31,988 nucleotides of DNA from Desulfobacteraceae bacterium. Lineage in GTDB: Bacteria > Desulfobacterota > DSM-4660 > Desulfatiglandales > HGW-15. The stretch covers positions 1-31,988 of the forward strand of contig JASFEQ010000005.1 in assembly GCA_050124735.1 (NCBI GenBank), written 5' to 3'. A program made the translations under genes and the position numbers. The number at the start of each line of letters is the position of its first letter. Position 1 is the stretch's first letter. Below the pieces are notes generated by a model that saw nothing but the letters and a program-made list of their open reading frames with translations, did not search any database and had not been told where the DNA came from. This document shows positions 13,607 to 31,988 of the stretch, in pieces.

Positions 13607-13621
13607 TGGCACTATGATTGC
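13607..13621 (+). promoter_or_regulatory. sigma54 (-24/-12) promoter TGGCAC-N5-TTGC upstream of glnA copy 1
   Basis: Exact GG-N10-GC with a TGGCAC / TTGC consensus match. It lies about 190 nt upstream of the ATG. A GGTGC...GCACC inverted repeat follows in the leader. Confidence 0.55.
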
Positions 13622-13808
13622 TTTAGATGGAAATAAGTAATATGGTGCTATCAAGCATCTCGCAAAGGATAGGGGCACCAAACCTCACATGAGGCATTAA
13701 GTCATTTGGAAAGCGGTGAGGTCGATATAAAGTTTCGGTTTGCCCATATGGGATTTTAGGTGACCACTTCACGCATTAAGATTTTTTGAATTAGAAGGAG
13801 GGAATGAA

Positions 13809-18108: not shown

Positions 18109-20277
18109 CTAGCCTTCCAAGATCTTTGGGACTTTAAAGTAGCTGGATTCCTCGTTCGGTGCATTTGCCATCAGGGATTCCGCTTCACTTGATTTTCTCG
18201 GTTCGTCCTCTCGCCACACGTTCTTCATTTCCAAGACGTGGCTCATGGGCTCCACATTTTCCGTATCTAACTCTTGCAGCGCCTCAAAGTGTTCCAACAC
18301 GGCATTTAACTCCTTCTGATAGGCGTCTGCCTCCGGATCGGTGATTTTCAAGCGAGCAAGCTTTGCCACATGCTTCACCTCGCCTATGGAAATTCTTTCT
18401 AACTCTGCGAGAGGACGCCCAACCGCATCTTCTTGTGCCGCCCCTCTCAATCCTATTACGGGTCTTCCCGCAATACCGGCAGAGCCCAAACCCAACTCCT
18501 TGAGCTGTGATCTGTCCACAGGAGAAGGTGCCAGGGTCAATGGACACAGGGCACTCCGATTCTTAGGAAAAGCGATCACATCTCTGATGGATGCTGTTTT
18601 CAAGATCATCGCAATGACCCTGTCTAGGCCAAGGGCAAGGCCGCCGTGCGGTGGGGCACCGTATTCCAAGGCTCTCAGAAAGAACCCGAACTTGGTCTCC
18701 ACCTCCCCAGGGCTCAACCCTAAGGCCCTGAAGATCTTATCTTGGACTTCCATCTCATGAATACGGATACTACCCCCGCCCAGTTCCTCTCCATTTATGA
18801 CCAAGTCGTAGGCCCTGGAATTCAGACCCAGCAATTCCTCCTCGTTTGTGGAATCGAAATCGGTCCGATCAGGCATGGTGAAGGGATGATGCTGGGAGCC
18901 CAACCTTCCATCCTTGCGTTCAAAGAGGGGGAAGTCGGTCACCCATATGGGGCAATAGCGATCTTCAGGGATCAGCCCAAGCCTTTCAGCCACGTGAAGG
19001 CGTAGGCTACAGAGGGCCTTGTCCATAAGTTCCACGGAGGCATCGGCAATCATCATGATGACATCACCATCCTCAGCGTTGAAGCGTTCTCTGATTGCCT
19101 CTTGCTCGGTCGGAGAGAAAAACTGGGCAATGTTTGACTCCAGATTCCCATTAATCACTTTCATCCAGGTCATCCCTTTTGCCCCAAATGAAGGGACAAT
19201 CTTTAGAGCGTATTCATTTTGGAGGACATTCTTGCTTAATCTACCCGCCATACCCTTCACGCAGAACCCCTTGATCTGGCCACCCTGCCCAATGACCTGA
19301 CGGAAAATCGTGTAGCCGGTATCTTGAACAATGTCCGTCACCTCTTCGAAGGACATGTCAAAGCGTGTATCCGGGCAATCGGTGCCATAACGACCCATCG
19401 CCTCCCTGTAAGTCATCCGTGGAAAGGGGCTGGGCACGCGGATCCCTCCCAGGGCAAACATCCGGACGGTTAGCGCTTCTATGACGTCATAAATGAATTC
19501 CTCATCGATGAAGGCGGCCTCCATGTCCAATTGTGTAAACTCCGGCTGCCTGTTGGGTCTTAGATCCTCATCACGAAAACACCTCGCTATTTGAAAGTAG
19601 CGGTCCAAGCCGCTCATCATGAGAATTTGTTTGAAGAGTTGAGGAGACTGGGGAAGCGCATAAAACTTACCCTGATGGACCCGACTGGGGACCAGATAAT
19701 CCCTGGCGCCCTCAGGCGTGCTCTTCGTCAGGAAGGGTGTTTCGATTTCGGTGAAGCCGAGCTCGTGGAAATAGTCACGAATGCATTTCATGATCTCGTG
19801 TCGTTTGATGAAGAGACCCTGAACAGAGGGACGCCGAAGATCCAGGTATCTGTATTGCAACCTGAGTTCTTCGTCCACATTTTCTGGGCTGGACTGGATC
19901 TCTTCCCCAAAAACCATGGCTTTTTCAGAGATCAGAAAAGGCAGGATTTTTGCTTTAGAGAGTATCTCAAGCTCTGTGGCGAACACTTCCACATCTCCCG
20001 TCTCCAGATTGGGATTTTCCGTTCCCTTTTGCCTACGTCCCACCTTTCCTCGCACCTCCACCACGTACTCTTCTTTTAGCGTGGTGGACCTTTCGTAGCT
20101 TTCCTTGTTCACATGGGGATCGAAAACGACCTGCACGATCCCCCGGATGTCCCGCAGATGAATGAACAGCAAGTTCCCATGGTCTCGAATGGCGTCCACC
20201 CAACCCATGAGCAGTACATCTCTTTCCATATCAGAGGTCCTCAAGGACCCACAGTAAACCCTATCTCTCCACTTCAT
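18109..20277 (-). CDS. aspS: Aspartyl-tRNA synthetase with in-frame C-terminal GatC domain (AspS-GatC fusion)
   Basis: 722 aa. Residues 1 to about 595 are AspRS ('GWVDAIRDHGNLLFIHLRD', class II motifs, 'AFPKN'). A Gly/Ala/Arg linker follows. The last roughly 95 aa, 'RISIGEVKHVAKLARLKITDPE...VEPMSHVLEMKNVWREDE...NAPNEESSYFKVPKILEG', are unmistakably GatC (about 18112-18400). Confidence 0.85.
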   Translation of the reverse strand: MKWRDRVYCGSLRTSDMERDVLLMGWVDAIRDHGNLLFIHLRDIRGIVQVVFDPHVNKESYERSTTLKEEYVVEVRGKVGRRQKGTENPNLETGDVEVFATELEILSKAKILPFLISEKAMVFGEEIQSSPENVDEELRLQYRYLDLRRPSVQGLFIKRHEIMKCIRDYFHELGFTEIETPFLTKSTPEGARDYLVPSRVHQGKFYALPQSPQLFKQILMMSGLDRYFQIARCFRDEDLRPNRQPEFTQLDMEAAFIDEEFIYDVIEALTVRMFALGGIRVPSPFPRMTYREAMGRYGTDCPDTRFDMSFEEVTDIVQDTGYTIFRQVIGQGGQIKGFCVKGMAGRLSKNVLQNEYALKIVPSFGAKGMTWMKVINGNLESNIAQFFSPTEQEAIRERFNAEDGDVIMMIADASVELMDKALCSLRLHVAERLGLIPEDRYCPIWVTDFPLFERKDGRLGSQHHPFTMPDRTDFDSTNEEELLGLNSRAYDLVINGEELGGGSIRIHEMEVQDKIFRALGLSPGEVETKFGFFLRALEYGAPPHGGLALGLDRVIAMILKTASIRDVIAFPKNRSALCPLTLAPSPVDRSQLKELGLGSAGIAGRPVIGLRGAAQEDAVGRPLAELERISIGEVKHVAKLARLKITDPEADAYQKELNAVLEHFEALQELDTENVEPMSHVLEMKNVWREDEPRKSSEAESLMANAPNEESSYFKVPKILEG

Positions 20278-20856: not shown

Positions 20857-20871
20857 TGGCACACCGCTTGC
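20857..20871 (+). promoter_or_regulatory. sigma54 promoter TGGCAC-ACCGC-TTGC driving the PII gene and probably the downstream nitrogen cluster
   Basis: A perfect -24 TGGCAC / -12 TTGC with a 5-nt spacer, 37 nt upstream of the ATG. An AT-rich IHF-like tract (20700-20800) lies upstream, with GGAGG 10 nt before the start. Confidence 0.6.
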
Positions 20872-20907
20872 TCTAAAGGTCTTCAACTCGACGGAGGTAT
20901 TCAAGCC

Positions 20908-21246
20908 ATGAAGTACGTTATAGCCATGATTCAGCCCCATATACTGAATGATGTGAAACAGGCACTGTTTGATAATGAGATTTACAGCATGACGGTCAGT
21001 AATGCATTGGGGTGCGGCAATCAGATGGGTTACACGGAAACCTACAGAGGCGTGATGCAGGAAGTGAACCTTCTGAAAAAGGTGAGACTTGAGATTGCAG
21101 TGAATGACGATTTTGTGGAACCCACCATTGAAGCGATCATCAAGGGATCAAGGTCAGGAAATATGGGAGACGGAAAGATCTTCGTGCTGGATCTCCCTCA
21201 ATGTATCAGGATAAGAACCCTCGAAAGAGGGACGAAGGCCATATAA
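20908..21246 (+). CDS. PII nitrogen regulatory protein (GlnB/GlnK family), T-loop lacks Tyr51
   Basis: 112 aa. '[18 protein letters not shown]' and '[20 protein letters not shown]' match the PII B-loop and C-terminus. The T-loop reads '[17 protein letters not shown]', so the uridylylation-site Tyr is replaced. Confidence 0.85.
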
Positions 21247-21370
21247 ACCCCGGAGTGATGGAGCACTGGAGTATTGGAATAAGGAAAAGGAAGACATTTT
21301 TTCTTCTAGTTCCATCACTCCTATACTCCATTACTCCAATACTCCAAAGCTCTGTTAAGGAGGTCTAGCG

Positions 21371-22636
21371 ATGTTAGGTGTATGGATTGGAATTGCTGTC
21401 ATAGCGGTACTGATTATTTTGGCTTTTATTAAAGCGAACCTGAGGATTTGTCATCCAAATGAAATCCTCGTCTTTTCAGGTAGGAAGAGGAAACTAAAAG
21501 ATGGAACAGTTGTGGGATACAGGGTGATCAAAGGAGGTCGTGGTCTCAAAATTCCCATCATTGAATCGGTAACCCGGTTGCCTCTGACAACCATCCCCAT
21601 CGACCTGGAGCTTTCAGGAGCACTTACCAGCGGAATCATTCCTATAAACCTTCAAGCAATGGCCAATGTGAAGATAGCGGGCAGCGAGGAGGAAGGCCTA
21701 TCCAATGCACTGGAGAGGTTCTTGGGAAGGAACATTACTGACATTTCGCAGATCGCCAGGGAAAACCTGGAGGGTAGTTTACGAGGAGTGCTCGCCACTT
21801 TAACCCCAGAGGAAGCGAATAACAATAGGCTCGAGTTTTCGGAGAAAGTGGCACAACAGGCAAGAAGTGATCTTAGGAATCTCGGCCTGGTCCTTGATAC
21901 CTTCAAGATCAAACATATCTCTGACAACGAAGGGTACTTGGAGGCGATCGGAAGGAAAAAGAACGCCGAGGTCAGAAGGGATGCCAAAATTGTTGAAGCC
22001 AACGCGGAAGCTGAGGCGATGCTGGTGGCTGCGGAAGCGAAGAAAAAGGGAAGAGTGGCAGAGCATGAGGCAGATGTCAGCATCGTGGAGGCAGAAAACA
22101 AGCTTCGCGTGAGACGGGCGGATTTGGCTGCAGAAGCTCACAGGTTTGAAGCCAGAGCCAATGTGGCCGGTGAGATCGCGCGGATAGAAGAGGAACAGAA
22201 ACTGGAAGAGCAACGGGTTGAGATGAACAAACACAAATATGAAGCAGATGTGGTTGTCCCTGCTCGAGCGGAAAAAGACGCCATGGAATTAAGGGCCATG
22301 GGTAAAGCAGCCAATATCATTGAAGACGGCAAGGCCATGGCAGAGGCCGTGAGATCCATGCGACAAGAGTGGGAGAAGGAAGATACGAGAGATCTCTTCC
22401 TGATCCAACAGCTACCCGACATCTTAGATAAGATAACTCGTGTGGTCGCTGAGAATCTATCTATTGATAAGGTGACCATAGTGGATAGCGGCAACGGCAG
22501 CGGTGTGCCGGCGTATGTCCACGGCGTGACGGGTTCTATCGTCTCCATATTCGAGCAGATAAAAAATGCCACAGGCCTGGACATTCCCGAAATCCTTCAA
22601 GCCAGAGGCAAGGGCACCGGGGAGTTCACAGGCTAA
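21371..22636 (+). CDS. Flotillin-like SPFH/band-7 membrane protein
   Basis: 421 aa. It has an N-terminal TM helix, an SPFH core, and a long Ala/Glu-rich coiled-coil ('EANAEAEAMLVAAEAKKKGRVAEHEADVSIVEAENKLRVRRADLAAEA'). Confidence 0.8.
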   Translation: MLGVWIGIAVIAVLIILAFIKANLRICHPNEILVFSGRKRKLKDGTVVGYRVIKGGRGLKIPIIESVTRLPLTTIPIDLELSGALTSGIIPINLQAMANVKIAGSEEEGLSNALERFLGRNITDISQIARENLEGSLRGVLATLTPEEANNNRLEFSEKVAQQARSDLRNLGLVLDTFKIKHISDNEGYLEAIGRKKNAEVRRDAKIVEANAEAEAMLVAAEAKKKGRVAEHEADVSIVEAENKLRVRRADLAAEAHRFEARANVAGEIARIEEEQKLEEQRVEMNKHKYEADVVVPARAEKDAMELRAMGKAANIIEDGKAMAEAVRSMRQEWEKEDTRDLFLIQQLPDILDKITRVVAENLSIDKVTIVDSGNGSGVPAYVHGVTGSIVSIFEQIKNATGLDIPEILQARGKGTGEFTG

Positions 22637-22675
22637 TTTCCTCACTCTGCCTTCCCTCGAGGAGACCATGTCATA

Positions 22676-22768
22676 ATGTCATTGCGAGGGAGTGTAACGA
22701 CAGAAGCAATCTCATAAGACATCGAAAACAACGAGATTGCCACGCTCCCTTTGGTCACTCACAATGAC
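22676..22768. repeat. Intergenic palindromic repeat element, copy 1 (GTCATTGCGAGG...GCAATCTC-N-GAGATTGCCACGC...CACAATGAC)
   Basis: It shares ordered conserved blocks with 27337-27455. It contains the internal hairpin GCAATCTC/GAGATTGC and imperfect terminal inverted repeats. Confidence 0.5.
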
Positions 22769-22833
22769 CAAAAGGGGATTGCGACACAGCCTCATAAGGG
22801 TGAGGGCGGGGTGGGGGTGAGAGGAGGAGATTC

Positions 22834-24162
22834 ATGTCAATCAGAACCAAAAGAGATGTGATGAAGATTGTCAAAGAAAGAAATGTAAGTTTTATCCAGA
22901 TCTGGTTTACAGATATCTTGGGAATATTAAAAGGTTTTGCCATTGCACCTTCGGAACTGGAAAGTGCATTGACAGAGGGGATGGGTTTCGATGGCTCCTC
23001 TATCGAGGGGTTCGCCCGGATCGAGGAGAGCGACATGATTGCAATGCCCGATCCTTCAACCTTCGGATTCCTTCCTTGGCGGCCAAAGGAGCGGCCCGTG
23101 GCCCGCATGTTCTGCGATATCCTGCAGCCAGATGGGTCCCATTATGAGGGGGACCCACGGTATGTTCTAAAGCGTGTGTTACAGAGGGCCGCTGACAAGG
23201 GTTATAAACTCTATTTGGGCCCTGAACTGGAGTTCTTCTACTTTGCAAACAATGAGAAACCGGAGACAATCGATAAGGGTGGGTATTTTGATACCAGACC
23301 TCTAGACCTTGCAAGCGACCTGAGGAGAGACACCATTTTCACGCTTCAGGAAATGGGCATACAGGTGGAATACAGCCACCATGAAGTGGCCCCCAGTCAG
23401 CACGAGATTGATTTGCGTTATGATGAGGGGCTGAAGATGGCGGACAATACCATGACCTACCGGGTGGCAGTCAAAGAGATCGCCCGCAAACATGGATATT
23501 ATGCGACTTTCATGCCCAAGCCCATCTTTGGAGAAAACGGCAGTGGCATGCACACACATCAATCCCTTTTCAGAGGCGATATCAACGCCTTTTATGAGCC
23601 CAGTGATCAGTACCATCTCTCCGATATCGCGAAATCATACATCGCAGGTATCTTGAACCACGCCCGAGAGATAACAGCAATCACTAACCAGTGGGTCAAC
23701 TCATACAAGCGACTGGTCCCCGGTTACGAAGCACCGGTCTATATCTCTTGGGCGCGGCGCAATCGCTCAGCAATGGTAAGAGTCCCCATGTACAAACCGG
23801 GCAAAGAGCAGGCGACCCGTATTGAATATCGCTCGCCCGATCCGGCCTGCAATCCTTACCTCGCATTTGCTGTGATGTTGGCTGCGGGACTGAAAGGGAT
23901 AGATGACAACTACTCGCTTCCTGACCCGGTAGAAGAGGATATCTACGAGATGGATGAGGCAGCAAGGGAAAGGGCTGGCATTATCTCTTTGCCTGGAAGC
24001 CTCTTTGAAGCGGTTCAGGAGCTTGAGAAGAGTGAATTGGTTCGAGAGACACTTGGAGACCACATCTTCAACAAGTTCATCGCAAACAAGAAGATCGAAT
24101 GGGACCGATACCGCATACATATCAGCGGGTATGAAATTGAGAACTATTTCCCAATTCTCTAA
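22834..24162 (+). CDS. glnA: Glutamine synthetase type I-alpha, second paralog (442 aa, about 75% identical to the first)
   Basis: Has the same GS motifs ('KPIFGENGSGMHTHQSL', 'NRSAMVRVP'). A GAGGAGGAG SD lies upstream. Confidence 0.9.
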   Translation: MSIRTKRDVMKIVKERNVSFIQIWFTDILGILKGFAIAPSELESALTEGMGFDGSSIEGFARIEESDMIAMPDPSTFGFLPWRPKERPVARMFCDILQPDGSHYEGDPRYVLKRVLQRAADKGYKLYLGPELEFFYFANNEKPETIDKGGYFDTRPLDLASDLRRDTIFTLQEMGIQVEYSHHEVAPSQHEIDLRYDEGLKMADNTMTYRVAVKEIARKHGYYATFMPKPIFGENGSGMHTHQSLFRGDINAFYEPSDQYHLSDIAKSYIAGILNHAREITAITNQWVNSYKRLVPGYEAPVYISWARRNRSAMVRVPMYKPGKEQATRIEYRSPDPACNPYLAFAVMLAAGLKGIDDNYSLPDPVEEDIYEMDEAARERAGIISLPGSLFEAVQELEKSELVRETLGDHIFNKFIANKKIEWDRYRIHISGYEIENYFPIL

Positions 24163-24185
24163 ATCCCCTCGCCTGCGCCCTCGCG

Positions 24186-24233
24186 GGATTCGCCTGCCCG
24201 TCCCGGGCCGGTACGGGCCGGGGAGGCGAATCC
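24186..24233. other. GC-rich extended hairpin (GGATTCGCC...GGCGAATCC with internal CGGGCCGG repeats) downstream of glnA2
   Basis: 9-bp perfect outer arms enclose GC-rich imperfect inner pairing. It is probably a transcript-stabilising or terminator structure, or a REP-like element. Confidence 0.3.
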
Positions 24234-24331
24234 GATGGCGGACGGGCGAGAGCAATGGCGGGCAGGCCTCTATTCCCCTTTACAAAGAGGGAAGATTAAG
24301 GACTCACTCTGCGGAAATGAAAGACAATGTT

Positions 24332-24352
24332 CCCCCCTTTGCTAAAGGGGGG
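24332..24352 (+). terminator. Hairpin CCCCCCTTT-GCT-AAAGGGGGG, weak terminator candidate
   Basis: A 9-bp stem with a 3-nt loop. The T-tail is weak (AATTTTGG). Confidence 0.3.
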
Positions 24353-24412
24353 CAGGGGAATTTTGGAACAGATTGACCATGGATGATGTGAGTTCGAATT
24401 GTGGAGTTGGAT

Positions 24413-25141
24413 ATGGCAAAAAGATTTCTCACTTTTCAACATATGCCCTGGGAAGGACCAGGTATCCATCTCCTGCGATCTGCCAAAAGGTGGGGAGTCC
24501 AGCTGGAGGTGATTGAGGTATGGCGTCAGCCCATTCCCGATCTTGCCCCTTATGACGCTTTGATTGTCCTAGGCGGCGAGCCCAATGTGAATCAGGAAGC
24601 GAAGTACCCTTTCTTGAGCGCTGAAAAAGCGGCTATCCGACAATCCATTGCTGAAGACAGACCTTACCTTGGTTTTTGCCTGGGTCACCAATTGCTTGCT
24701 GATGCCTTGGGGGCCAATGTGGGGGATAATTTCTGCCGCAGTGTGGGATTCATTGAAGGGCAGGTTACAAAAGAAGGGAGCCAACACCCCCTATTGCGGC
24801 GTCTTCCACAAACCTTTCCCCTGTTCAAGTGGCATACTCAGACCATCTTACCGCCCGTGCCCAAACACATTGAGGTTTTGGTTACATCGTCGGAATGTCT
24901 GGTGGAGGCAATTTCGGTAACCAAAAGAGCGCATATCGTTGGCTTGCAGTTTGATAATCACGCGGCTACCCGTGTGAATGTGACCAAATGGCTGAAAGAG
25001 GATAGCAAGTGGGTCTCGCATTCGCCGAGTTTCAACCCTTCCAAGGTGTTAACAGACGCAACGCTGCTGGAAAGGCCAGCGGGAGAGCAATTTGAGGTAC
25101 TTTTCGGCAACTTTATGAGGTTGGTCTTAGGCCCAGATTGA
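24413..25141 (+). CDS. Class I glutamine amidotransferase-like protein (stand-alone GATase1)
   Basis: Has 'YLGFCLGHQLL' (nucleophile Cys elbow) and 'VGLQFDNH' (His region). The track ORF starts at GTG 24401. ATG 24413 with GGAG 6 nt upstream is preferred. Confidence 0.7.
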   Translation: MAKRFLTFQHMPWEGPGIHLLRSAKRWGVQLEVIEVWRQPIPDLAPYDALIVLGGEPNVNQEAKYPFLSAEKAAIRQSIAEDRPYLGFCLGHQLLADALGANVGDNFCRSVGFIEGQVTKEGSQHPLLRRLPQTFPLFKWHTQTILPPVPKHIEVLVTSSECLVEAISVTKRAHIVGLQFDNHAATRVNVTKWLKEDSKWVSHSPSFNPSKVLTDATLLERPAGEQFEVLFGNFMRLVLGPD

Positions 25142-25209
25142 TCTAAATCATACTCATCGGTCTCATGGTAGGGGCGGGGTGAGGACAAAGAAACAGGAGG
25201 CTATCACAA

Positions 25210-26592
25210 ATGGCAAAGAAAATTTTGATCACGACTTTTATCGCCTTACTGGTGTTTGGATGCATGGTGCATGTTGCAATGGCTGAAAACCCAACTGAGG
25301 CCCCCACGTCTGCTCAGGAAGTATGGTCTGACAAAAGTGTGGCAATCGATACGGGCTGGACCCTTTTTGCAGCCGTCCTGGTCATGTTCATGCAGGCTGG
25401 TTTTGCCATGCTTACAGCGGGGTTCTCACGCTCCAAAAATGCCGGGAACATGTTAATGAAAAACCTCATGGATTTCTGTTTTGGAAGTATCGCTTTTTGG
25501 GCCATAGGGTTTGGTTTGATGTTTGGGGCAGGTAATTTTCTGTTTGGTACGAGCGGCTTTTTCCTCACTGACTCTGGTGGAACATTTTCTGCTTTGAGCT
25601 GGAGCAAGGTCCCCTTGGAATGCAAGTATTTTTTCCAGCTGGTTTTTTGTGCGACTGCCGCCACCATTGTGGCCGGGGCCATGGCAGAGAGGACGAAGTT
25701 TGTGGCCTACATCTTCTACAGCATCGCAATCACCGCGATCATCTATCCCATTGTGGGACATTGGATTTGGGGGGGTGGCTGGTTAGCCGAGTTGGGCATG
25801 TGGGATTTTGCGGGATCCACTGTGGTCCATTCCACAGGAGGCTGGCTTGCACTAAGCGGTGCCATCATGCTGGGGCCAAGGACGGGCAAGTACGCTGCTG
25901 ACGGCTCTTCAAATGCTATCCCTGGTCACAATATTCCCTTGGCCGCATTAGGGACGTTTATTCTCTGGTTCGGATGGTTTGGGTTTAATCCTGGAAGCAC
26001 CATGGCACTCGTCCCCGAAATCGCACATATTGCTGCCGCGACCAATATTGCTGGTGCGGCAGGGGGAATAGCGGCCATGATCGCAGCCTGGTGGATGTTT
26101 AAGAAGCCCGATGTGAGTATGGCCCTCAATGGCGTCCTCGGCGGTCTGGTCAGTATTACAGCCTCCTGTGCTTTCGTATCTTTAGGCAGTGCCATATGGA
26201 TCGGCATTGTGGGAGGCGTCTTGGTCGTACTAGCCGTATACTATATTGATCAGTTTCTGCATGTGGACGATCCGGTGGGAGCGATCGCTGTTCATGGGGT
26301 CTGCGGGTCTTGGGGGACACTGGCCCTGGGTCTGTTTGCCCAAGACAAATTCTCTCCAGGAACAACGGGCAACGGCCTCTTTTTTGGGGGAGGGGTGAAG
26401 CTGCTTGGCGCTCAGGCCCTTGGGGTTATCTCCGTGTTTGCTTGGAGTATGGCAATCGGATTCCTCCTGTTTTATGTGATCAAGAACCTGGTGGGTTTGC
26501 GTGTGAGCAGAGACGAAGAACTGCGCGGGCTTGACATTGATGAACACGGTATGGAGGCTTATCCCGGATTTTCCATCTTTACCACCCAGTAA
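25210..26592 (+). CDS. amtB: Ammonium transporter (Amt family) with signal peptide
   Basis: 460 aa. It has Amt signatures 'DFAGSTVVHSTGGW' and 'GAIAVHGVCGSWGTLALGLF', with 11 TM segments after a cleavable leader. An AGGAGG SD lies upstream. Confidence 0.9.
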   Translation: MAKKILITTFIALLVFGCMVHVAMAENPTEAPTSAQEVWSDKSVAIDTGWTLFAAVLVMFMQAGFAMLTAGFSRSKNAGNMLMKNLMDFCFGSIAFWAIGFGLMFGAGNFLFGTSGFFLTDSGGTFSALSWSKVPLECKYFFQLVFCATAATIVAGAMAERTKFVAYIFYSIAITAIIYPIVGHWIWGGGWLAELGMWDFAGSTVVHSTGGWLALSGAIMLGPRTGKYAADGSSNAIPGHNIPLAALGTFILWFGWFGFNPGSTMALVPEIAHIAAATNIAGAAGGIAAMIAAWWMFKKPDVSMALNGVLGGLVSITASCAFVSLGSAIWIGIVGGVLVVLAVYYIDQFLHVDDPVGAIAVHGVCGSWGTLALGLFAQDKFSPGTTGNGLFFGGGVKLLGAQALGVISVFAWSMAIGFLLFYVIKNLVGLRVSRDEELRGLDIDEHGMEAYPGFSIFTTQ

Positions 26593-26883: not shown

Positions 26884-27306
26884 ATGACAGCTTCAAAGGG
26901 CCCTATTTTGGCCCTGTTCTACTGCCAGAATACGCCTGGTAGCACCGAAAAGGAGAGACAGGCCCTGGAGGAGAAGTATGGGGCGTCCCTGCGCCTCTTC
27001 CCCATTCCCTGCAGCGGGCGGTTGGATCCTCTTCACCTCTTGAGAGCGCTTGAGGAATTTGCCGACAATGCCTATCTCATCAGCTGTCCCGAGGGGGCTT
27101 GCCGATATTTTGAGGGAAATCGGCGGGCAAAAAAGCGTGTGGAAAGAACGCAACAGATTATCGAGGGGATTGGTCTGGAGAAAGAGCGGGTTGGGCTCAT
27201 TGTCAGGTCAAAAGAGGATTGCAGGCCCCTTGCAAAGCTGGCAGAGGAGATAGTGGATTTGACCTCCAAACTGGGCCCCTCGCCCGTGCACAAGAAGGCT
27301 GCATAG
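26884..27306 (+). CDS. mvhD: MvhD/FlpD-like iron-sulfur protein (methyl-viologen-reducing hydrogenase delta-subunit domain)
   Basis: 140 aa. 'ILALFYCQNTPG', 'FPIPCSGRLDP' and 'AYLISCPEGACRYFEGNRRAKKR' match the FlpD/MvhD Cys pattern. Confidence 0.7.
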   Translation: MTASKGPILALFYCQNTPGSTEKERQALEEKYGASLRLFPIPCSGRLDPLHLLRALEEFADNAYLISCPEGACRYFEGNRRAKKRVERTQQIIEGIGLEKERVGLIVRSKEDCRPLAKLAEEIVDLTSKLGPSPVHKKAA

Positions 27307-27336
27307 CAAAGGAAGAACTGACGTCCTGACAACCAT

Positions 27337-27455
27337 GTCATTGCGAGGAGTCCCGCGGGGGCGGGACGACGGAGCAATCTCAAAGAGGACGAGATTGCCA
27401 CGCCTTTTCCCGAAGGGACTCTCGTCCCATCAGGACGCAGCGGGCTCGCAATGAC
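27337..27455. repeat. Intergenic palindromic repeat element, copy 2 (perfect 11-bp TIR GTCATTGCGAG / CTCGCAATGAC)
   Basis: It has the same block order as copy 1 and an internal GCAATCTC-AAAGAGGAC-GAGATTGC hairpin. Confidence 0.5.
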
Positions 27456-27506
27456 CTTTAGAAGGAGCCTAACGAGTCTGTAGGAATCAAGAAGGAGAGA
27501 GAAGTT

Positions 27507-28175
27507 ATGATTACAGCAGAACAAAAACCCATTGACGAAATCAGGGAGATGATCGCCCCCTACAAGAAAATCTTGGTCTTGGGCTGCGGCTCCTGTGTGG
27601 CCGAATGTGCTGCGGGAGGCGAAAAGGAGACCGGTGCATTGGCGTCCATACTGCGCATGGCCACCAAGATGGAGGGAGGGGATGTGCTTATTGAGGAAAA
27701 AACGCTGGATCGTCAATGCGTGAAAGATTTTGTTATAGAGTTGGACGATATCATAGAGCAATACGACGCCGTTGTCTCATTGGGCTGCGGAGCAGGAGTC
27801 CAGGCCGTGGCAGATATGTTTCCTGAGATTCCCATCATACCGGCCCTGGATACGGAATTTTTGGGTGAGACCAGGGATCAGGGATTGTGGGTGGAGAACT
27901 GCCTCGGTTGTGGGGACTGCATGCTCTATTTTTTTGGCGGCGTATGTCCTCTTGCACGTTGTTCAAAGCAACTCCTCAACGGCCCCTGTGGCGGATCCAT
28001 GGAAGGTAAATGTGAAGTGAACCCTGAAGTTCCATGCGCCTGGCAGGTGATTATCGACAGATTATCTTCCTTCGACGCCCTTGAACGGCTTGAGTGGGTT
28101 TACCCGCCAAAGGATTGGACCAAGAAGCAGGGCAAGGGACCAAGAAAGATCATCAGGGAGGATCAGCAAAAGTGA
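27507..28175 (+). CDS. metV: MetV-type protein (methylene-THF reductase C-terminal domain; Cys-rich FeS/Zn)
   Basis: 222 aa. It has 'LVLGCGSCVAECAAGG', 'CLGCGDCML' and the hallmark 'LLNGPCGGS'. An AAGGAGAG SD lies upstream. Confidence 0.75.
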   Translation: MITAEQKPIDEIREMIAPYKKILVLGCGSCVAECAAGGEKETGALASILRMATKMEGGDVLIEEKTLDRQCVKDFVIELDDIIEQYDAVVSLGCGAGVQAVADMFPEIPIIPALDTEFLGETRDQGLWVENCLGCGDCMLYFFGGVCPLARCSKQLLNGPCGGSMEGKCEVNPEVPCAWQVIIDRLSSFDALERLEWVYPPKDWTKKQGKGPRKIIREDQQK

Positions 28176-28180
28176 AAGAT

Positions 28181-29098
28181 ATGAGCAACCTGAAAAAGGT
28201 ACTTGAAAAAGGAGAGTTTGCAGTGACCGGGGAGTGTGGTCCTCCCAAGGGTGCGGACCCCGATGCAGTGCTCAAAAAGGCAGAGCTATTGAAAGATAAG
28301 GTGGATGCCATAAATGTGACCGACAACCAGACGGCCATCGTACGCATGTCAAGTCTGGCTGCCTGTAGCCTTTTGAGATCGGCGGGGTTGGATCCTGTGC
28401 TGCAGGTGGTGGTCAGAGACCGGAATCGGATTGCTCTCCAGTCTGACATATTGGGGGCCTCCGCCGTTGGGATCCGCAATGTACTCTGTCTCTCGGGCGA
28501 CCATCAGGGTTTTGGCAATCAACCCCAGGCCATGGGTGTATTTGATCTGGACTCTATTCAGTTCGTCAGTGTGGTGAAGAATATGCGGGACGAAGGGACC
28601 ATTCTGGGGGGTGAGCCCCTGAGCAAGGCCCCGGAACTCTTTATTGGCGCAGCCGCAAACCCCTTTGCCGATCCGCTCTCCTTCAGGGTCGTTCGACTGG
28701 CCAAGAAGATCAACGCGGGAGCCGATTTTATCCAGACCCAGTGCGTATATAATCTGGATAGGTTTGAGGAATGGATGAAGATGGCAAGGGATAAGGGCCT
28801 CACGGATAAAGCCTTCATCCTTGGAGGTGTGACACCTCTGAAGTCCCCTGGCATGGCAAAGTATATGAACAAAAAGGTGGCGGGCATGGACGTCCCGGAC
28901 GAGATCATAAAAAGAATGGAGAGTGTACCCAAAGAAAAGCAGAGAGAGGAGGGTATCCAGATCTGTGTGGAAACCATTCAGCAGTTAAAAGAGATGGCGG
29001 GCGTCAAAGGCGTGCATATCATGGCCATTGAATGGGAAGAAGTAGTTGGTGAGATAGTGGAGAAAGCAGGGCTTCTGCCAAGACCCGCCTTTTCGTAG
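28181..29098 (+). CDS. metF: 5,10-methylenetetrahydrofolate reductase (acetogen/anaerobe-type MetF)
   Basis: It has 'FAVTGECGPPKG', 'INVTDNQTAIVRMSS' and 'VLCLSGDH' (TIM-barrel MTHFR family). The track ORF starts at 28094, overlapping metV. The in-frame ATG 28181 immediately after the metV stop gives a 305-aa MetF. Confidence 0.8.
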   Translation: MSNLKKVLEKGEFAVTGECGPPKGADPDAVLKKAELLKDKVDAINVTDNQTAIVRMSSLAACSLLRSAGLDPVLQVVVRDRNRIALQSDILGASAVGIRNVLCLSGDHQGFGNQPQAMGVFDLDSIQFVSVVKNMRDEGTILGGEPLSKAPELFIGAAANPFADPLSFRVVRLAKKINAGADFIQTQCVYNLDRFEEWMKMARDKGLTDKAFILGGVTPLKSPGMAKYMNKKVAGMDVPDEIIKRMESVPKEKQREEGIQICVETIQQLKEMAGVKGVHIMAIEWEEVVGEIVEKAGLLPRPAFS

Positions 29099-29333
29099 CC
29101 GAAAAGGAAGTCCGAAGTCCCAATAACCAAATGACAAGGAATTTTCAAATTTCCAAGATTCCAAGAGTGAAAACATATTCTTGTTGTAGTTCTATCTAAG
29201 AAATCAAAAGTTTTAAATGTTTTTAATATTTGGGGATTTGGAAATTGGGATTTTCTGGTCACATAAGCAGTTATAAAGTGGCTGCATAGGTTGAGTTCAT
29301 TAACGAGAATAGCAGGTAATTGAGGATTTAGAG

Positions 29334-30731
29334 ATGCCTTCCAAATACGTGATACACACGAAGCCGACTCCCCATCGATTCAAGGAGATTACGGAGTCCG
29401 GGATCATTGCCTGGGAAGAGGGCTGTCTCAAGTGTGCCGTCTGTGTGAAAAAGCAATGTGTCTATGGGGTATATGATAATCGGGGCCTTGATGGCCACCA
29501 GATGATTGACTCTATCGACAACCAATGCATGAACTGTTTCAGATGTGTTCAGGGATGTCCCAAGGAACTTATCCATAAATCTCTCAACCCTGAATATAAA
29601 GCCCTTGGAGATGCCCACTGGACACCAGATGTTATTGCCAGATTGTGGTATCAGGCGCAGAGTGGCAAGATTCCTGTCTCTGGTGCAGGCTATCCAGGGC
29701 CTTTTAGTGGCCCTGGTTTTGACGCCATGTGGACGGATATGTCCGAGATCGTTCGGCCCACCAGAGACGGTATCCACGGTCGGGAATACATTAACACTGC
29801 CATTGATCTGGGCAAGACACCAAGGCATCTCACTTTTGACGAAAACGGTGATCTGAAGGGTGATGTGCCGGTTTTCATAGATGTTCCCCTTCCCATCATC
29901 ATGAGAGTTCCCACTTTTGGTGCCCTGAGTGACAAGACTATGAAGGGGTGGGCCATGGCGGCCAAACGTCTGGGAACACTGTTTGCCTTGCCCGAGGATT
30001 TAATAACAAAGGATTTGGCGGACTTCAGGCCCCACCTCATCCCGCTCATTTCACCAGGGCCCATGGATCTGGAGAAACTGGGAGACGGCATAAGACTGGT
30101 GGAAATATCTTGGAAAGAGGACTGGGTAGAGACCTTCCACACAATAAGGAGATCGCATCCATCTACCTTGATATCTGTCCGTGTGCCTCTGACTGAGGAC
30201 GCGAAAGAAAAGGTCCTATCCCTTGTAAGGGAAGGCGTTTCAATTGTTCACTTGGAGGGTAGTTACCATGGCAGGGCCATGGATGACGAGTCCCTGTTTG
30301 TCAAGGAAGCGATCCGATCCGTGCATTTGGCCCTGGTGGAAGAAGGTGTGCGAGATGAGACCAGCCTATTGGTAAGCGGCGGTCTTGCCATGGCCGAGCA
30401 TGTGGCGAAGTCTATGATCTGCGGGGCAGATGCGGTTTTTATTGATTTCCCCATACTCATTGCCCTGGAGTGCAGGATGTGTCGTCGGTGCACGAAAGGG
30501 CTGTCCTGTCCAGTAGAAATAGACCAGGCCCCGTCGACCTGGGTCGCCTCACGCGTTGTTAACCTCTTGGGCGCGTGGCACAACCAGATCCTGGAAGTGA
30601 TGGGTGCTATGGGGATAAGGGAGGCACGTCGCTTGAGGGGAGAGGCAGGCCGTGCCATGTTCTTCGAAGACCTGGATGAGGCCACATTTGGATCTATGGG
30701 AAAGGTTGAGGAGGGATACGAACTTGACTAA
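29334..30731 (+). CDS. Glutamate-synthase FMN-domain-family protein with N-terminal 2x[4Fe-4S] ferredoxin domain, catalytic motifs degenerate
   Basis: 465 aa with 'CLKCAVCVKKQC...CMNCFRCVQGCP'. It is homologous to the downstream ORF throughout ('HWTPDVIARLW', 'LVSGGLAMAEHVAKSMICGADAV...ALECRMCRRC'). It lacks the GEGG, QGAKPGxGG and GGTGAAP motifs. Confidence 0.75.
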   Translation: MPSKYVIHTKPTPHRFKEITESGIIAWEEGCLKCAVCVKKQCVYGVYDNRGLDGHQMIDSIDNQCMNCFRCVQGCPKELIHKSLNPEYKALGDAHWTPDVIARLWYQAQSGKIPVSGAGYPGPFSGPGFDAMWTDMSEIVRPTRDGIHGREYINTAIDLGKTPRHLTFDENGDLKGDVPVFIDVPLPIIMRVPTFGALSDKTMKGWAMAAKRLGTLFALPEDLITKDLADFRPHLIPLISPGPMDLEKLGDGIRLVEISWKEDWVETFHTIRRSHPSTLISVRVPLTEDAKEKVLSLVREGVSIVHLEGSYHGRAMDDESLFVKEAIRSVHLALVEEGVRDETSLLVSGGLAMAEHVAKSMICGADAVFIDFPILIALECRMCRRCTKGLSCPVEIDQAPSTWVASRVVNLLGAWHNQILEVMGAMGIREARRLRGEAGRAMFFEDLDEATFGSMGKVEEGYELD

Positions 30732-31988
30732 CCACAAAGGTTTTCAATTTCCAGTGGCGAAGGGCGCACCGTCGCGTTTCCGAAACCCTATCGGAAAATA
30801 TCGGCTGGATCGCTCAAGCGACTGCATTGCCTGCGGCAAATGTGTGGAAGTGTGTCCTTATGGGGTTCACGTCATGAAGAGGGGCCATGTCCTGGTTAAA
30901 CATCATTACCGTTGTGTTGGGCCAGATTGCCCCACCCCTTGTTATGAAGAATGCCCGGTCCAGGCCCTTTCTTTAAAGAGGAATCCCACATTTGATGCCA
31001 TGGGAGATTTTCGGTGGACCCCAGACCTTCTGGCCAGCACCTGGCACATGGCTGAAACGGGTGAGGTGCCACCAGGCGGTCTTGAATACAAGATAGGAGA
31101 CTCAGATGGCGGTTTTGACAAATTGCGTCTCATCTATCCTCCCAAAGAAACCGTGAAAGACACCTTAGATCTGCCAGATAAGGACGTAGATGTGGGTGTG
31201 GAACTGAACAGGCTTAATGATAATGCCCACAAGATCAGAATAGAGGTCCCCTTTTATGGCGGAGGGATGTCCTATGGTTCCATAAGCATCACCACCATGC
31301 TGAGCAGGATTAAGGCCGCCGCCGCTTTAGGTACCTTTTGCTGTACCGGGGAGGGCGGATATCCAGATGAGCTAAAACCCTATGACGACCATGTGATCAC
31401 CCAGGTGGCCACAGGCCTGTTTGGGGTCAGAGAGGAAACCATACAGCGGGTGAAAATTGTCGAATTCAAGTATGCTCAGGGGGCCAAGCCCGGTCTCGGA
31501 GGACACCTCCTGGGGGACAAGGTGACCCCGGGCGTGGCCCGCATGCGCGAAGCAGTGGTTGGGTATCCCTTATTTTCCCCCTTTCCTTTTCATAGTGTCT
31601 ATTCAGTGGAAGATCATAAAAAGCATGTGGATTGGATAAAGGCGATGAGTCCACAAGCGCTGGTATCGGTCAAGGTCTCCACGCCCACTGACGTGGATAT
31701 GGTGGCTGTGGGAAGTTATTATGCTGGCGCTCATATCATTCATTTGGACGGAAGCTATGGTGGCACTGGCGCGGCTCCTGATATCGCCAAGAAAAATATC
31801 GCCATGCCCATCGAGTATGCACTTCCCAAGGTCCATCGGTTTTTGCAGGAGGAAGGTGTGAGAGACAAGATAACGGTGATTGCCAGTGGAGGCATTAGAA
31901 CACCCCATGATGTGGCCAAGATCATAGCCCTTGGGGCTGACGGGGTCTGCACTGGAACCGCGGATCTGGTGGCCTTGGAGTGTATCCG
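30724..31988 (+). CDS. Archaeal-type glutamate synthase GltB2-like FMN subunit with N-terminal ferredoxin domain (3'-truncated by window end)
   Basis: An open frame to the window edge is not in the ORF track. It has 'CIACGKCVEVCPYG...CPTPCYEECP', 'CCTGEGGYPDE', 'YAQGAKPGLGGHL', 'HLDGSYGGTGAAP' and 'IASGGIRTPHDVAKIIALGADGV'. The TTG at 30724 with GAGGAGGG 8 nt upstream is preferred over GTG 30754. Confidence 0.75.
   Translation, partial: MTNHKGFQFPVAKGAPSRFRNPIGKYRLDRSSDCIACGKCVEVCPYGVHVMKRGHVLVKHHYRCVGPDCPTPCYEECPVQALSLKRNPTFDAMGDFRWTPDLLASTWHMAETGEVPPGGLEYKIGDSDGGFDKLRLIYPPKETVKDTLDLPDKDVDVGVELNRLNDNAHKIRIEVPFYGGGMSYGSISITTMLSRIKAAAALGTFCCTGEGGYPDELKPYDDHVITQVATGLFGVREETIQRVKIVEFKYAQGAKPGLGGHLLGDKVTPGVARMREAVVGYPLFSPFPFHSVYSVEDHKKHVDWIKAMSPQALVSVKVSTPTDVDMVAVGSYYAGAHIIHLDGSYGGTGAAPDIAKKNIAMPIEYALPKVHRFLQEEGVRDKITVIASGGIRTPHDVAKIIALGADGVCTGTADLVALECI

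What the first reader, a model, noticed from the sequence alone, without database searches (positions are those of the whole stretch)
26884..31988. mvhD-metV-metF followed by two tandem ferredoxin-fused GltS-FMN-domain paralogs, one catalytically degenerate: candidate new redox module
**Established knowledge**
- MvhD-MetV-MetF is the core of acetogen-type methylene-THF reductases.
- These normally recruit HdrABC or RnfC as electron-input modules.

**Seen in sequence**
- No hdrABC is present in the window.
- The operon instead continues into two roughly 465-aa paralogs of the archaeal GltB2 type (2x[4Fe-4S] ferredoxin plus FMN TIM-barrel).
- The second paralog keeps every FMN/2-oxoglutarate motif (GEGG, QGAKPGLGGHL, GGTGAAP, ASGG).
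- The first has lost all but the SGG and the C-terminal Cys cluster, which points to a catalytic plus pseudo-enzyme heterodimer.

**Inference, two alternatives**
- A GltS-like flavo-FeS pair is the electron-input module of an undescribed MTHFR complex.
- Or MvhD/MetV/MetF-like proteins serve as the missing electron-donor module for an archaeal-type (GltD-less) glutamate synthase inside a sigma54 nitrogen regulon.

I have not seen either arrangement described.
Basis: partly seen in the sequence, partly recalled or inferred. Interest (0 to 1): 0.75.

Follow-up and report, generated by a model that had tools for sequence, protein, structure and literature searches.

The report
Glutamate synthase wired to methyl-folate enzyme
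The window holds five of the six genes of a widely conserved but apparently undescribed operon, in which a split glutamate synthase lacking its usual NADPH subunit sits next to an iron-sulfur relay and a methylene-tetrahydrofolate reductase that probably supplies its electrons.

Summary
Positions 26884-31988 encode MvhD, MetV, MetF and two full-length ferredoxin-fused GltS-FMN paralogs.

- **Paralog B** keeps every FMN and 2-oxoglutarate motif.
- **Paralog A** has lost GEGG and GGTGAAP and carries a 44-residue deletion of the QGAKPG loop. It keeps all three Cys clusters.
- **Sixth gene.** The window ends just before it. This gene, F, fuses a class-II glutamine amidotransferase to a GXGXG domain. 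It follows B in the closest relative and in nearly all others.
- **Conservation.** At least 574 species-level genomes carry paralog A (Desulfobacterota, Nitrospirota and others). Of 57 loci with enough flank, all have MvhD, 55 have A-B-F and 55 have MetF in the cluster.
- **Donor module varies.** When MetVF is absent, Hdr or NuoEF-like genes usually follow instead. In Chloroflexota a D-lactate-dehydrogenase-like module is fused directly to A. One 3016-aa protein joins that dehydrogenase, A, B and F in a single chain.

Best reading: B+F form a GltD-less glutamate synthase. A, an iron-sulfur-only pseudo-subunit, and MvhD form the electron relay. MetVF is the donor module, probably oxidising methyl-THF. 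The architecture is well supported. The donor identity is inferred. I found no prior description.

The parts
26884..27306 (+). MvhD/FlpD-like [2Fe-2S] electron-transfer subunit (140 aa)
   Evidence: PF02662, E 2.4e-22. Matches MvhD chains of Mvh-Hdr structures at 5.8e-16. Present at the 5' end of the cluster in 57/57 complete related loci.
27337..27455 (.). Palindromic intergenic repeat element between mvhD and metV. It is not a coding part of the system.
   Evidence: Perfect 11-nt inverted termini, GTCATTGCGAG...CTCGCAATGAC. RNA fold -61.3 kcal/mol, z -5.5. A second copy lies at 22678-22768.
27507..28175 (+). MetV, the Fe-S subunit of acetogen-type MTHFR (222 aa)
   Evidence: PF12225, E 1.8e-34. 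All 13 Cys are invariant in 66/66 cluster-linked homologues.
28172..29098 (+). MetF, the flavin TIM-barrel methylene-THF reductase / methyl-THF dehydrogenase. The start is either GTG 28172 (308 aa, overlapping the metV stop as in relatives) or ATG 28181 (305 aa).
   Evidence: PF02219, E 4.6e-39. Best NCBIfam match is the MTHFR half of PRK08645, 234.7 bits. Catalytic and folate motifs E.GPPK, LSGD and TQ are kept in 66-68 of 69 homologues.
29334..30731 (+). Paralog A: a pseudo-GltB2 (465 aa). It has an N-terminal 2x[4Fe-4S] ferredoxin domain, a degenerate FMN-type TIM barrel and a C-terminal CxxCxxCx5C cluster. Proposed role: Fe-S electron adaptor.
   Evidence: AF2 gives a confident TIM barrel for residues 155-375. 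Foldseek matches GltS, glycolate oxidase and IMPDH barrels. There are 6734 homologues at E<=1e-3 among 8000 scored candidates, and the 120 best listed are 66-91% identical. An invariant 45-residue block, G111-I153, is specific to A.
30724..31988 (+). Paralog B: the catalytic GltB2-type subunit. It has a 2x[4Fe-4S] ferredoxin domain and a GltS FMN/2-oxoglutarate TIM barrel. It is truncated by the window end, which removes roughly 75 C-terminal residues including the CxxCxxCx5C cluster.
   Evidence: PF01645, 262.5 bits. A full-length orthologue matches the Azospirillum GltS alpha FMN domain at 7.5e-52, with QGAKPG, the Arg of ArxR and SPxPxH conserved. All motifs are present in 49/49 orthologues.
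20857..26592 (+). Upstream nitrogen-assimilation genes on the same strand. They are context and are not shown to be co-transcribed. The sigma54-type site is at 20857-20872, PII at 20908-21246, a Band7/flotillin gene at 21371-22636, GlnA at 22834-24162, a class-I GATase at 24401-25141 and Amt at 25210-26592.
   Evidence: Pfam and the sigma54 consensus search. The same order is seen in L001, L002 and the P0123 contig.

Best explanation
The window holds the first five genes of a conserved six-gene operon for a GltD-less, split ('archaeal-type') glutamate synthase with a new electron-input arrangement.

**Proposed roles**
- **B** is the catalytic FMN/Fe-S subunit that reduces 2-iminoglutarate.
- **F** is the gene just beyond the window. 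It fuses a class-II amidotransferase to a GXGXG domain and delivers ammonia from glutamine.
- **A** is a duplicated GltB2 that has lost the substrate motifs and probably the FMN site. It keeps three Cys clusters and serves as an Fe-S adaptor bound to B.
- **MvhD** ([2Fe-2S]) links A to an exchangeable dehydrogenase module.
- **MetVF** is that module in this organism and in most relatives.

**Proposed reaction**
MetVF runs as a methyl-THF dehydrogenase. Electrons pass from methyl-THF to the MetF flavin, then through the MetV Fe-S clusters, MvhD, A, the B Fe-S clusters and FMN, and finally to 2-iminoglutarate. The net reaction is CH3-THF + 2-oxoglutarate + Gln -> CH2-THF + 2 Glu.

**Shown versus inferred**
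- Shown: gene content, motif loss in A, conservation of the cluster, module swapping and fusions.
- Inferred: physical complex formation, the role of A, and the direction of electron flow with methyl-THF as donor.
For: 1. **Domains and motifs.**
2. **F follows B.** It does so in the closest relative, L090, where A is 91% identical, the B gene region about 95% identical in DNA, and F follows B after 22 nt. It also does so in L001 and L002.
3. **Breadth and conservation.** At least 574 species-level genomes carry A. Of 57 loci with enough flank, 57 have MvhD, 55 have A-B-F (one with B split), 50 have MetV-MetF directly upstream of A, 4 have MetV-MetF directly after F, and 1 has MetF only. Linkage therefore survives rearrangement and spans phyla.
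4. **MvhD belongs with the GltS genes.** It stays with A-B-F when MetVF is absent, and Hdr-like genes then follow F in L047, L056 and L065 (with NuoE/F in L056). L034 has both a MetF and Hdr-like genes.
5. **Natural fusions.**
   - A-B fusions of about 990 aa exist, one of them preceded by an MvhD gene.
   - A GlcD/LctD-like FAD dehydrogenase with Fer4 is fused to A and followed by B and F, with overlapping stops, in a Chloroflexota MAG.
   - One uninterrupted 3016-aa ORF joins dehydrogenase, A, B and F.
   - In every case A sits between the donor module and B.
6. **MetVF looks functional.** MetF keeps its catalytic Glu, Asp and Gln motifs, and MetV keeps all 13 Cys.
7. **Context.** Neighbours are glutamine and ammonium genes: GlnA, PII, Amt, CarAB, HisF and GATases.
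8. **Thermodynamics (my own knowledge, not computed here).** CH2-/CH3-THF is about -200 mV and pyruvate/lactate about -190 mV. Both are mid-potential couples, able to reduce 2-oxoglutarate+NH4+/Glu (roughly -0.1 to -0.14 V) but not NAD+.
Against: - No biochemical data exist for any member.
- MvhD's only established partner is HdrA, and Desulfobacteraceae encode many unlinked HdrA/HdrL-MvhD sets (PMC2702500). An Hdr encoded elsewhere could be the true input.
- Purified MetVF enzymes are known as reductases that take electrons from ferredoxin or dyes (my recollection of the acetogen literature). They are not known as physiological dehydrogenases.
- Some genomes carry another glutamate synthase near the cluster: a canonical 1527-aa GltB in L005, a partial one in L043 and a second split-type set in L045. 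This system is therefore not the only GOGAT, and its physiological niche is unknown.
- One complete genome has the five genes without F nearby (L004).
- Operon structure in the window is unproven. There are gaps of 200 and 235 nt before metV and A, and no promoter was identified.
- Whether the genome has a second, Wood-Ljungdahl-linked metF could not be checked.
Confidence: 0.5

Rival explanations
1. Hdr-dependent, possibly electron-bifurcating system. MvhD docks an HdrABC/HdrL complex encoded elsewhere in the genome. That complex supplies electrons from NAD(P)H, formate or H2. Both MetVF (reducing methylene-THF) and the A-B-F glutamate synthase are exergonic acceptor branches, as MetVF is in the Moorella HdrCBA-MvhD-MetVF enzyme.
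For: - The mvhD-metV-metF gene order matches the Moorella cluster, and co-localisation of hdr genes with partner genes is not required for function (PMC6085437 and PMC5736913).
- Hdr-like genes, with NuoE/F in L056, directly follow F in L047, L056 and L065. They flank the cluster in L034 and L035.
- Desulfobacteraceae carry many HdrA/HdrL-MvhD loci.
Against: - No Hdr gene is present in the window or within 10 kb in about 50 of 57 complete loci.
- The Chloroflexota and 3016-aa fusions work with a simple dehydrogenase and neither MvhD nor Hdr. The A-B-F core therefore does not need Hdr.
- Two high-potential acceptor modules on one relay have no known precedent.
Confidence: 0.22
2. Two separate enzymes that are only co-regulated. 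One is an MvhD-MetVF methylene-THF reductase for C1 or methionine metabolism. The other is a ferredoxin-dependent A-B-F glutamate synthase that takes electrons through its own ferredoxin-like domains. They are kept adjacent for common nitrogen or amino-acid control.
For: - Both A and B carry their own 2x[4Fe-4S] ferredoxin-like domains, which could accept electrons from soluble ferredoxin.
- Intergenic gaps of 200-235 nt separate mvhD, metVF and A-B in the window.
- L069 has MvhD-A-B-F with no MetVF or Hdr nearby.
Against: - MvhD segregates with A-B-F, not with MetVF, when the order changes.
- MetVF stays linked in two different positions and as two sequence clades that are only about 45% identical.
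- Donor-module fusions to A show that A receives electrons from an attached dehydrogenase.
Confidence: 0.18
3. The GltS-like pair is the electron-input module of a methylene-THF reductase. For example, B oxidises glutamate and passes electrons through A, MvhD and MetV to MetF.
For: - MetF, MetV and MvhD are all intact.
- Five genes occur without F in one complete genome (L004).
- At physiological glutamate/2-oxoglutarate ratios, glutamate could be a fair reductant (my own estimate).
Against: - F, with an intact-looking class-II amidotransferase (CGVTG, HQRYPTKG and HNGDF motifs) and a GXGXG domain, is conserved next to B in 55/57 loci. It has no role in glutamate oxidation.
- The neighbourhood is ammonium assimilation.
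- Variants lacking MetVF altogether keep MvhD-A-B-F.
Confidence: 0.06

Closest known systems
Split 'archaeal-type' glutamate synthase (separate GltB1 amidotransferase, GltB2 ferredoxin+FMN and GltB3 GXGXG proteins; no GltD)
   Same: B has the GltB2 architecture with every FMN, 2-oxoglutarate and cluster motif. F supplies the amidotransferase and GXGXG functions. No GltD is found in the window or in the flanks of relatives.
   Different: - GltB1 and GltB3 are fused into one protein of about 890 aa with a conserved propeptide of about 33 residues before the Cys.
- A second, catalytically dead GltB2 paralog (A) is always present.
- MvhD, and usually MetVF, are part of the cluster.
- None of the six proteins reaches a specific NCBIfam model.
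Moorella thermoacetica HdrCBA-MvhD-MetVF methylene-THF reductase (type III MTHFR of acetogens)
   Same: The same MvhD-MetV-MetF trio in the same order. MetF is of the acetogen/PRK08645 type. MvhD acts as a [2Fe-2S] connector.
   Different: HdrABC is absent here. The partner is a glutamate synthase core. MetVF is proposed to run in the oxidative direction as the donor rather than as the acceptor.
Bacterial NADPH-glutamate synthase (GltB alpha + GltD beta)
   Same: The same chemistry is expected at the FMN site. The B domain matches the alpha-subunit FMN domain at 7.5e-52. In both, electrons reach the synthase site through a chain of Fe-S clusters supplied by an accessory subunit (review PMC8097209).
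   Different: There is no GltD and no FAD/NADPH subunit. The Fe-S relay is built from a degenerate copy of the catalytic domain plus MvhD. The alpha-subunit domains are split and re-fused differently.
F420-dependent glutamate synthases of methanogens and ANME (GltS domains with FrhB-like modules)
   Same: They follow the same principle: a GltD-less GltS core whose electron-input module has been exchanged for a lineage-specific dehydrogenase (mentioned in PMC9012536).
   Different: The donor module is different (an FrhB/F420H2 module versus MetVF, Hdr or a GlcD-like dehydrogenase). No pseudo-GltB2 adaptor or MvhD has been reported there, to my knowledge.

Membership tests
Glutamate synthase, split archaeal type | FMN/2-oxoglutarate TIM-barrel domain (PF01645) with the GEGG, QGAKPG.GG and GGTGA(A/S)P motifs | tested here: met
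   Paralog B scores 262.5 bits on PF01645. The motifs are present in 49/49 orthologues. It matches the Azospirillum GltS FMN domain at 7.5e-52. Paralog A fails this feature: 1/82 sequences have the motifs and the loop carries a 44-aa deletion.
Glutamate synthase, split archaeal type | Cys cluster for the [3Fe-4S]/[4Fe-4S] centre next to the FMN domain | tested here: met
   CxxCxxCx5C is present in 82/82 A and 49/49 B orthologues. In the window's own B the motif lies beyond the window end. It is seen in L090 and L001.
Glutamate synthase, split archaeal type | Class-II (Ntn) glutamine amidotransferase domain with a nucleophile Cys | tested here: inconclusive
   It is not in the window. In the closest relatives the next gene, F, has GGCGVTG, HQRYPTKG and HNGDF motifs, but only weak GATase_6, GlmS and PurF matches (3.4e-5 to 3.6e-9). 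The Cys follows about 33 residues, so processing would be required.
Glutamate synthase, split archaeal type | GXGXG (GltB3) domain | tested here: met
   PF01493 scores 59.1 bits in F of L001. F follows B in L090, L001, L002 and 55/57 complete loci. The window itself ends before it.
Glutamate synthase, split archaeal type | Glutamine- and 2-oxoglutarate-dependent glutamate formation | not testable with these tools
   This needs an enzyme assay.
NADPH-glutamate synthase (GltBD) | GltD-type FAD/NADPH small subunit | tested here: not met
   No such gene is in the window or in the 10-kb flanks of L001, L002 and L090.
Acetogen-type MTHFR (MetVF) | MetF (PF02219) with the catalytic Glu, Asp and Gln, plus MetV (PF12225) with conserved Cys | tested here: met
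   The motifs are present in 66-68 of 69 MetF sequences, and 13 Cys are invariant in 66/66 MetV sequences.
Type III MTHFR (HdrABC-MvhD-MetVF) | HdrA, HdrB and HdrC encoded with MvhD-MetVF | tested here: not met
   No Hdr gene is in the window. Hdr-like genes are adjacent in only 5 of the 84 related loci examined (L034, L035, L047, L056, L065).
Type IV MTHFR (RnfC2-MetVF) | RnfC-like NADH-binding subunit | tested here: not met
   No RnfC- or NuoF-like ORF is in the window.
Hdr-type flavin-based electron-bifurcating complexes | HdrA bifurcating flavoprotein in the complex | tested here: inconclusive
   It is absent from the window and from most loci. MvhD, its usual partner, is always present, and an unlinked HdrA cannot be excluded.

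The most novel reading that the evidence does not exclude
This would be a previously unrecognised class of glutamate synthase. In it, an A-B-F core accepts electrons directly from exchangeable mid-potential dehydrogenase modules instead of from NAD(P)H, ferredoxin or F420H2. A is an Fe-S-only pseudo-subunit, B is the catalytic FMN subunit and F is the amidotransferase-GXGXG protein.

- In Desulfobacterota and Nitrospirota the module is methyl-THF oxidised through MetVF and MvhD.
- In Chloroflexota it is a 2-hydroxyacid oxidised through a fused GlcD-like domain.
- In a few lineages Hdr or NuoEF takes this place.

In organisms that use the Wood-Ljungdahl pathway, this would tie nitrogen assimilation to the methyl branch. 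It would also give MetVF a physiological electron acceptor in the oxidative direction.
Probability: 0.4. Interest if true: 0.85.

Novelty: new variant of a known kind. Interest (0 to 1): 0.77.

Why it matters
- **Open question on the electron donor.** The donor of GltD-less glutamate synthases is poorly defined outside the F420 enzymes. The physiological redox partner of MetVF-type methylene-THF reductases is also unresolved. This operon links the two questions and makes both testable with a single purification.
- **Breadth.** The operon occurs in at least 574 species-level genomes. These include sulfate reducers, syntrophs and Nitrospirota that dominate anoxic sediments. A new reductant for ammonium assimilation would therefore change metabolic models of these groups.
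- **A reused pseudo-enzyme.** Paralog A is a clear case of a pseudo-enzyme conserved as an electron-transfer adaptor. It is about 50% identical across phyla and has an invariant 45-residue block.
- **A design rule.** The swapping of donor modules (MetVF, Hdr/NuoEF or a GlcD-like dehydrogenase) shows how redox enzymes can be re-wired.

Tried and rejected
- **Exact look-up of paralog A.** It is not on record, so the window's own contig could not be extended. Close relatives were used instead (L090, L001, L002).
- **Sigma54 promoter upstream of mvhD or A.** None was found. The perfect sites lie only before PII and the second glnA.
- **Sigma70 and terminator scans.** The counts did not differ from shuffled sequence, so they were uninformative.
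- **AlphaFold2 model of A.** The TIM barrel is confident, but residues 1-153 score below pLDDT 50. The invariant G111-I153 block therefore could not be interpreted, and FMN binding could not be judged structurally. Foldseek returned only generic FMN TIM-barrel matches.
- **PDB sequence searches.** No solved MetV homologue and no structure of an A-like protein were found.
- **Literature.** Eight full-text searches combined MetV, MetFV, MvhD, HdrABC, GXGXG, glutamate synthase and Desulfobacter. None returned a description of this linkage. The hits concern the Moorella-type MTHFR, HdrL (an HdrA-GltD fusion) or F420-GltS.
- **Artefact of annotation or chance adjacency.** I considered and rejected this, because linkage holds in two gene orders and across phyla.
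- **The cluster as the only GOGAT.** I rejected this, because a canonical GltB lies next to it in L005 and L043.

Full report
**1. What is in the window**

On the + strand, positions 26884-31988 encode five proteins.
- MvhD/FlpD, 140 aa (PF02662).
- MetV, 222 aa (PF12225).
- MetF, 305 or 308 aa (PF02219).
- Paralog A, 465 aa. It has a Fer4 dicluster, and only the C-terminal half of PF01645 matches (72.9 bits).
- Paralog B, which starts at TTG 30724 and is cut by the window end. It has Fer4 and PF01645 at 262.5 bits.

A's stop overlaps B's start by 8 nt. Upstream on the same strand lie PII, a Band7/flotillin protein, GlnA, a class-I GATase and Amt.

The rest of the window holds a second GlnA, GatB, GatA, an AspRS-GatC fusion and cell-envelope genes. 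It holds no Hdr, NuoEF, RnfC or GltD gene.

**2. The two paralogs**

Profile-profile alignment of 82 A and 49 B sequences gives full-length homology: probability 100% and 27% identity.

A has these changes relative to B:
- GEGG is replaced.
- A 44-residue stretch containing QGAKPGLGGHL and the SPxPxH segment is deleted.
- GGTGAAP has become YHGRAMD.

A keeps SGG/GADAV, the C-terminal CxxCxxCx5C motif and the eight N-terminal Cys. Motif counts across relatives agree: the catalytic motifs occur in 49/49 B sequences and 1/82 A sequences, while the Cys motifs occur in 82/82 A sequences.

B's orthologue aligns to the FMN domain of Azospirillum GltS alpha at 7.5e-52, with the 2-oxoglutarate-binding Gln, Lys and Arg positions conserved. 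A reaches only 9e-4.

A is not decaying. Median pairwise identity is 0.50 for A against 0.68 for B over the same 49 loci. A also has an invariant block, G111-I153, with no counterpart in known families.

AlphaFold2 gives a confident TIM barrel for residues 155-375 of A and low confidence for the N-terminal 153 residues. Foldseek returns GltS, glycolate oxidase and IMPDH barrels.

**3. The operon continues beyond the window**

The closest relative found is L090. Its A is 91% identical, and its B region is about 95% identical in DNA. It continues 22 nt after B with a gene of more than 838 aa that is 87% identical to the 889-aa protein following B in L001 and L002.

This protein, F, has two parts.
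- An N-terminal class-II amidotransferase-like domain. Its motifs are GGCGVTG, HQRYPTKG and HNGDF, and its matches to GATase_6, GlmS and PurF are weak.
- A C-terminal GXGXG domain (PF01493, 59 bits).

B plus F therefore supply all three functional parts of a GltS alpha subunit.

**4. Conservation**

A scan of one genome per species found at least 574 genomes encoding an A relative. They include Desulfobacteraceae, Desulfatiglandales, Desulfomonilaceae, Syntrophales, Syntrophorhabdia, Desulfarculaceae and Nitrospirota, with single Leptospirales and Latescibacterota hits.

In a tblastn synteny table of the loci fetched up to that point, 57 had enough flank on both sides.
- 57 of 57 have MvhD.
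- 55 have A-B-F, one of them with B split.
- 50 have MetV-MetF directly upstream of A.
- 4 have the order MvhD-A-B-F-MetV-MetF. Their MetVF clade is only about 45% identical to the window's.
- 1 has MetF alone.
- 2 have no MetF (L056 and L069).

Close MetF homologues (83-95% identical) sit in the same cluster. The cluster-linked MetF keeps the catalytic Glu, Asp and Gln motifs in 66-68 of 69 cases. MetV keeps 13 invariant Cys.

Frequent neighbours are GlnA, PII, Amt, CarAB, HisF and GATases, which are genes of ammonium and glutamine metabolism.

**5. The donor module is exchangeable**

Where MetVF is missing from a locus with enough flank, MvhD-A-B-F is usually followed by one of these:
- HdrC-, HdrB- and a 1016-aa HdrA/HdrL-like protein (L047);
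- HdrC and HdrB (L065, where the contig then ends);
- a membrane NarI-like/Fer4 protein, a CCG protein, an HdrA fragment and NuoE- and NuoF-like proteins (L056).

L034 and L035 combine MetF or MetVF with such Hdr-like genes. L069 has neither module.

MvhD therefore belongs with the GltS genes, and MetVF or Hdr are alternative partners.

A search of 1.8 billion representative proteins with A found 1010 relatives, including natural fusions.
- A-B fusions of about 990 aa, one of them preceded by an MvhD gene.
- Proteins of about 1200 aa made of a GlcD/LctD-like FAD dehydrogenase, a Fer4 dicluster and A. In a Chloroflexota MAG this protein is followed, with overlapping stops, by B and F, and there is no MvhD or MetVF.
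- An uninterrupted 3016-aa ORF with the order dehydrogenase, A (without motifs), B (with motifs), F.

In all architectures A lies between a dehydrogenase module and B.

**6. Mechanism**

The parsimonious reading has four parts.
- B+F is a GltD-less glutamate synthase.
- A is an Fe-S-only adaptor derived from the catalytic subunit, and it probably pairs with B.
- MvhD connects A to a separate donor module.
- In this window that module is MetVF.

The fused alternative is a 2-hydroxyacid dehydrogenase, a class that works as an electron donor. The Hdr/NuoEF alternative is also an input module. For both reasons I infer that MetVF donates electrons by oxidising methyl-THF.

From my own knowledge, the methylene-/methyl-THF couple is about -200 mV and pyruvate/lactate about -190 mV. 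Both are too positive to reduce NAD+ but negative enough to drive reductive amination of 2-oxoglutarate, which glutamine hydrolysis pulls further. This gives the three variants a common logic.

The direction of flow, the physical complex and the cofactor content of A are inferences. Nothing here is biochemical.

**7. Rivals**

- *An unlinked Hdr supplies electrons, and both MetVF and the GltS core are acceptors.* MvhD's canonical partnership with HdrA and the Hdr-containing variants support this. The Hdr-free fusion enzymes, and the absence of Hdr near most clusters, argue against it.
- *Two merely co-regulated enzymes, with ferredoxin feeding A and B directly.* The intergenic gaps and L069 are compatible with this. 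MvhD staying with A-B-F, and the retention of MetVF in two different positions, are hard to square with it.

**8. Caveats**

- Some genomes encode a canonical GltB or a second split-type set next to the cluster. This is therefore an additional GOGAT, not the only one.
- One complete genome has the five genes without F nearby.
- No promoter was identified for the operon. Perfect sigma54 sites occur only before PII and the second glnA.

**9. Comparison and novelty**

The closest known systems are:
- the split archaeal glutamate synthase;
- the Moorella HdrCBA-MvhD-MetVF reductase (PMC6085437, PMC5736913);
- bacterial GltBD (PMC8097209);
- the F420-dependent GltS (PMC9012536).

None of them has a pseudo-GltB2 adaptor, an MvhD partner or a MetVF link. 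Eight full-text searches found no description of this arrangement. NCBI's curated models name A only 'glutamate synthase-related protein', and JGI calls it 'ferredoxin'.

I class it as a new variant of a known kind, namely a glutamate synthase with a new modular electron-input system. It would rise in interest if methyl-THF is shown to be the reductant.

Noticed in passing
window 27337-27455 and 22678-22768: An intergenic element of about 119 nt with perfect 11-nt inverted termini (GTCATTGCGAG...CTCGCAATGAC). Its RNA fold is -61.3 kcal/mol, z -5.5. A second pair of termini lies between the flotillin gene and glnA. The motif gives 5 matches against 0.56 expected. It looks like a REP/MITE-type repeat.
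   Followed up: partly
window 20857-20872 and 13607-13622: Two perfect sigma54 consensus sites (TGGCAC-N5-TTGC). One is 36 nt upstream of the PII gene. The other is about 190 nt upstream of a second glnA (13809-15140), which is 74% identical to the glnA at 22834-24162.
   Followed up: partly
window 18109-20277 (-), with 16663-18105 (-) and 15211-16662 (-): An aspartyl-tRNA synthetase is fused at its C-terminus to GatC (722 aa). GatA and GatB follow on the same strand. The fusion is conserved in L001 and in the P0123 contig.
   Followed up: no
window 24401-25141: A stand-alone class-I glutamine amidotransferase (PRK07053-like) lies between glnA and amt. A homologue sits directly upstream of mvhD in the distant loci L039, L040, L053, L066 and L079, so it may be an accessory of the system.
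   Followed up: partly
L047:8219-13066; L056:15563-21226; L065:6766-7937; L034:11409-15431; L035:2-4219: In these loci the MvhD-A-B-F cluster is adjacent to Hdr-like genes.
- HdrC, HdrB and a 1016-aa HdrA/HdrL-like protein.
- Or a membrane NarI-like/Fer4 (QmoC-like) protein, a CCG protein and an HdrA-like protein.
- NuoE- and NuoF-like proteins as well, in L056.

This may be an electron-bifurcating or quinone-linked version of the enzyme.
   Followed up: partly
L089:5883-14933; L088:8001-15867; L086:264-4690: A single 3016-aa ORF fuses a GlcD/D-lactate-dehydrogenase-like domain, paralog A, paralog B and the amidotransferase-GXGXG protein. In a Chloroflexota MAG the same set is split into three overlapping genes. 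The substrate of the dehydrogenase is unknown: D-lactate, glycolate or D-2-hydroxyglutarate.
   Followed up: partly
L005:11446-16029; L043:17082-18941; L045:14299-19497: Another glutamate synthase lies within a few kb downstream of F. L005 has a canonical large GltB (1527 aa) and L043 a partial one. L045 has a second split archaeal-type set. These genomes therefore have at least two GOGAT systems side by side.
   Followed up: no
L007, L008, L016, L019, L025, L032, L034, L046 (HisF); many loci (CarA/CarB); L001:20447-21398: Genes for other glutamine-dependent enzymes recur just downstream of the cluster: HisF, carbamoyl-phosphate synthase and a PurF-like GATase. Together they form a glutamine-use neighbourhood.
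   Followed up: no
window 21371-22636: A Band7/flotillin-like gene sits between PII and glnA. The same position is occupied in L001 and the P0123 contig, which is an unusual member of a nitrogen-assimilation gene row.
   Followed up: no
window 5311-8352 (-): A 1013-aa protein whose only Pfam matches are HEAT/PBS-lyase-type repeats in its C-terminal third. Its function is unknown.
   Followed up: no
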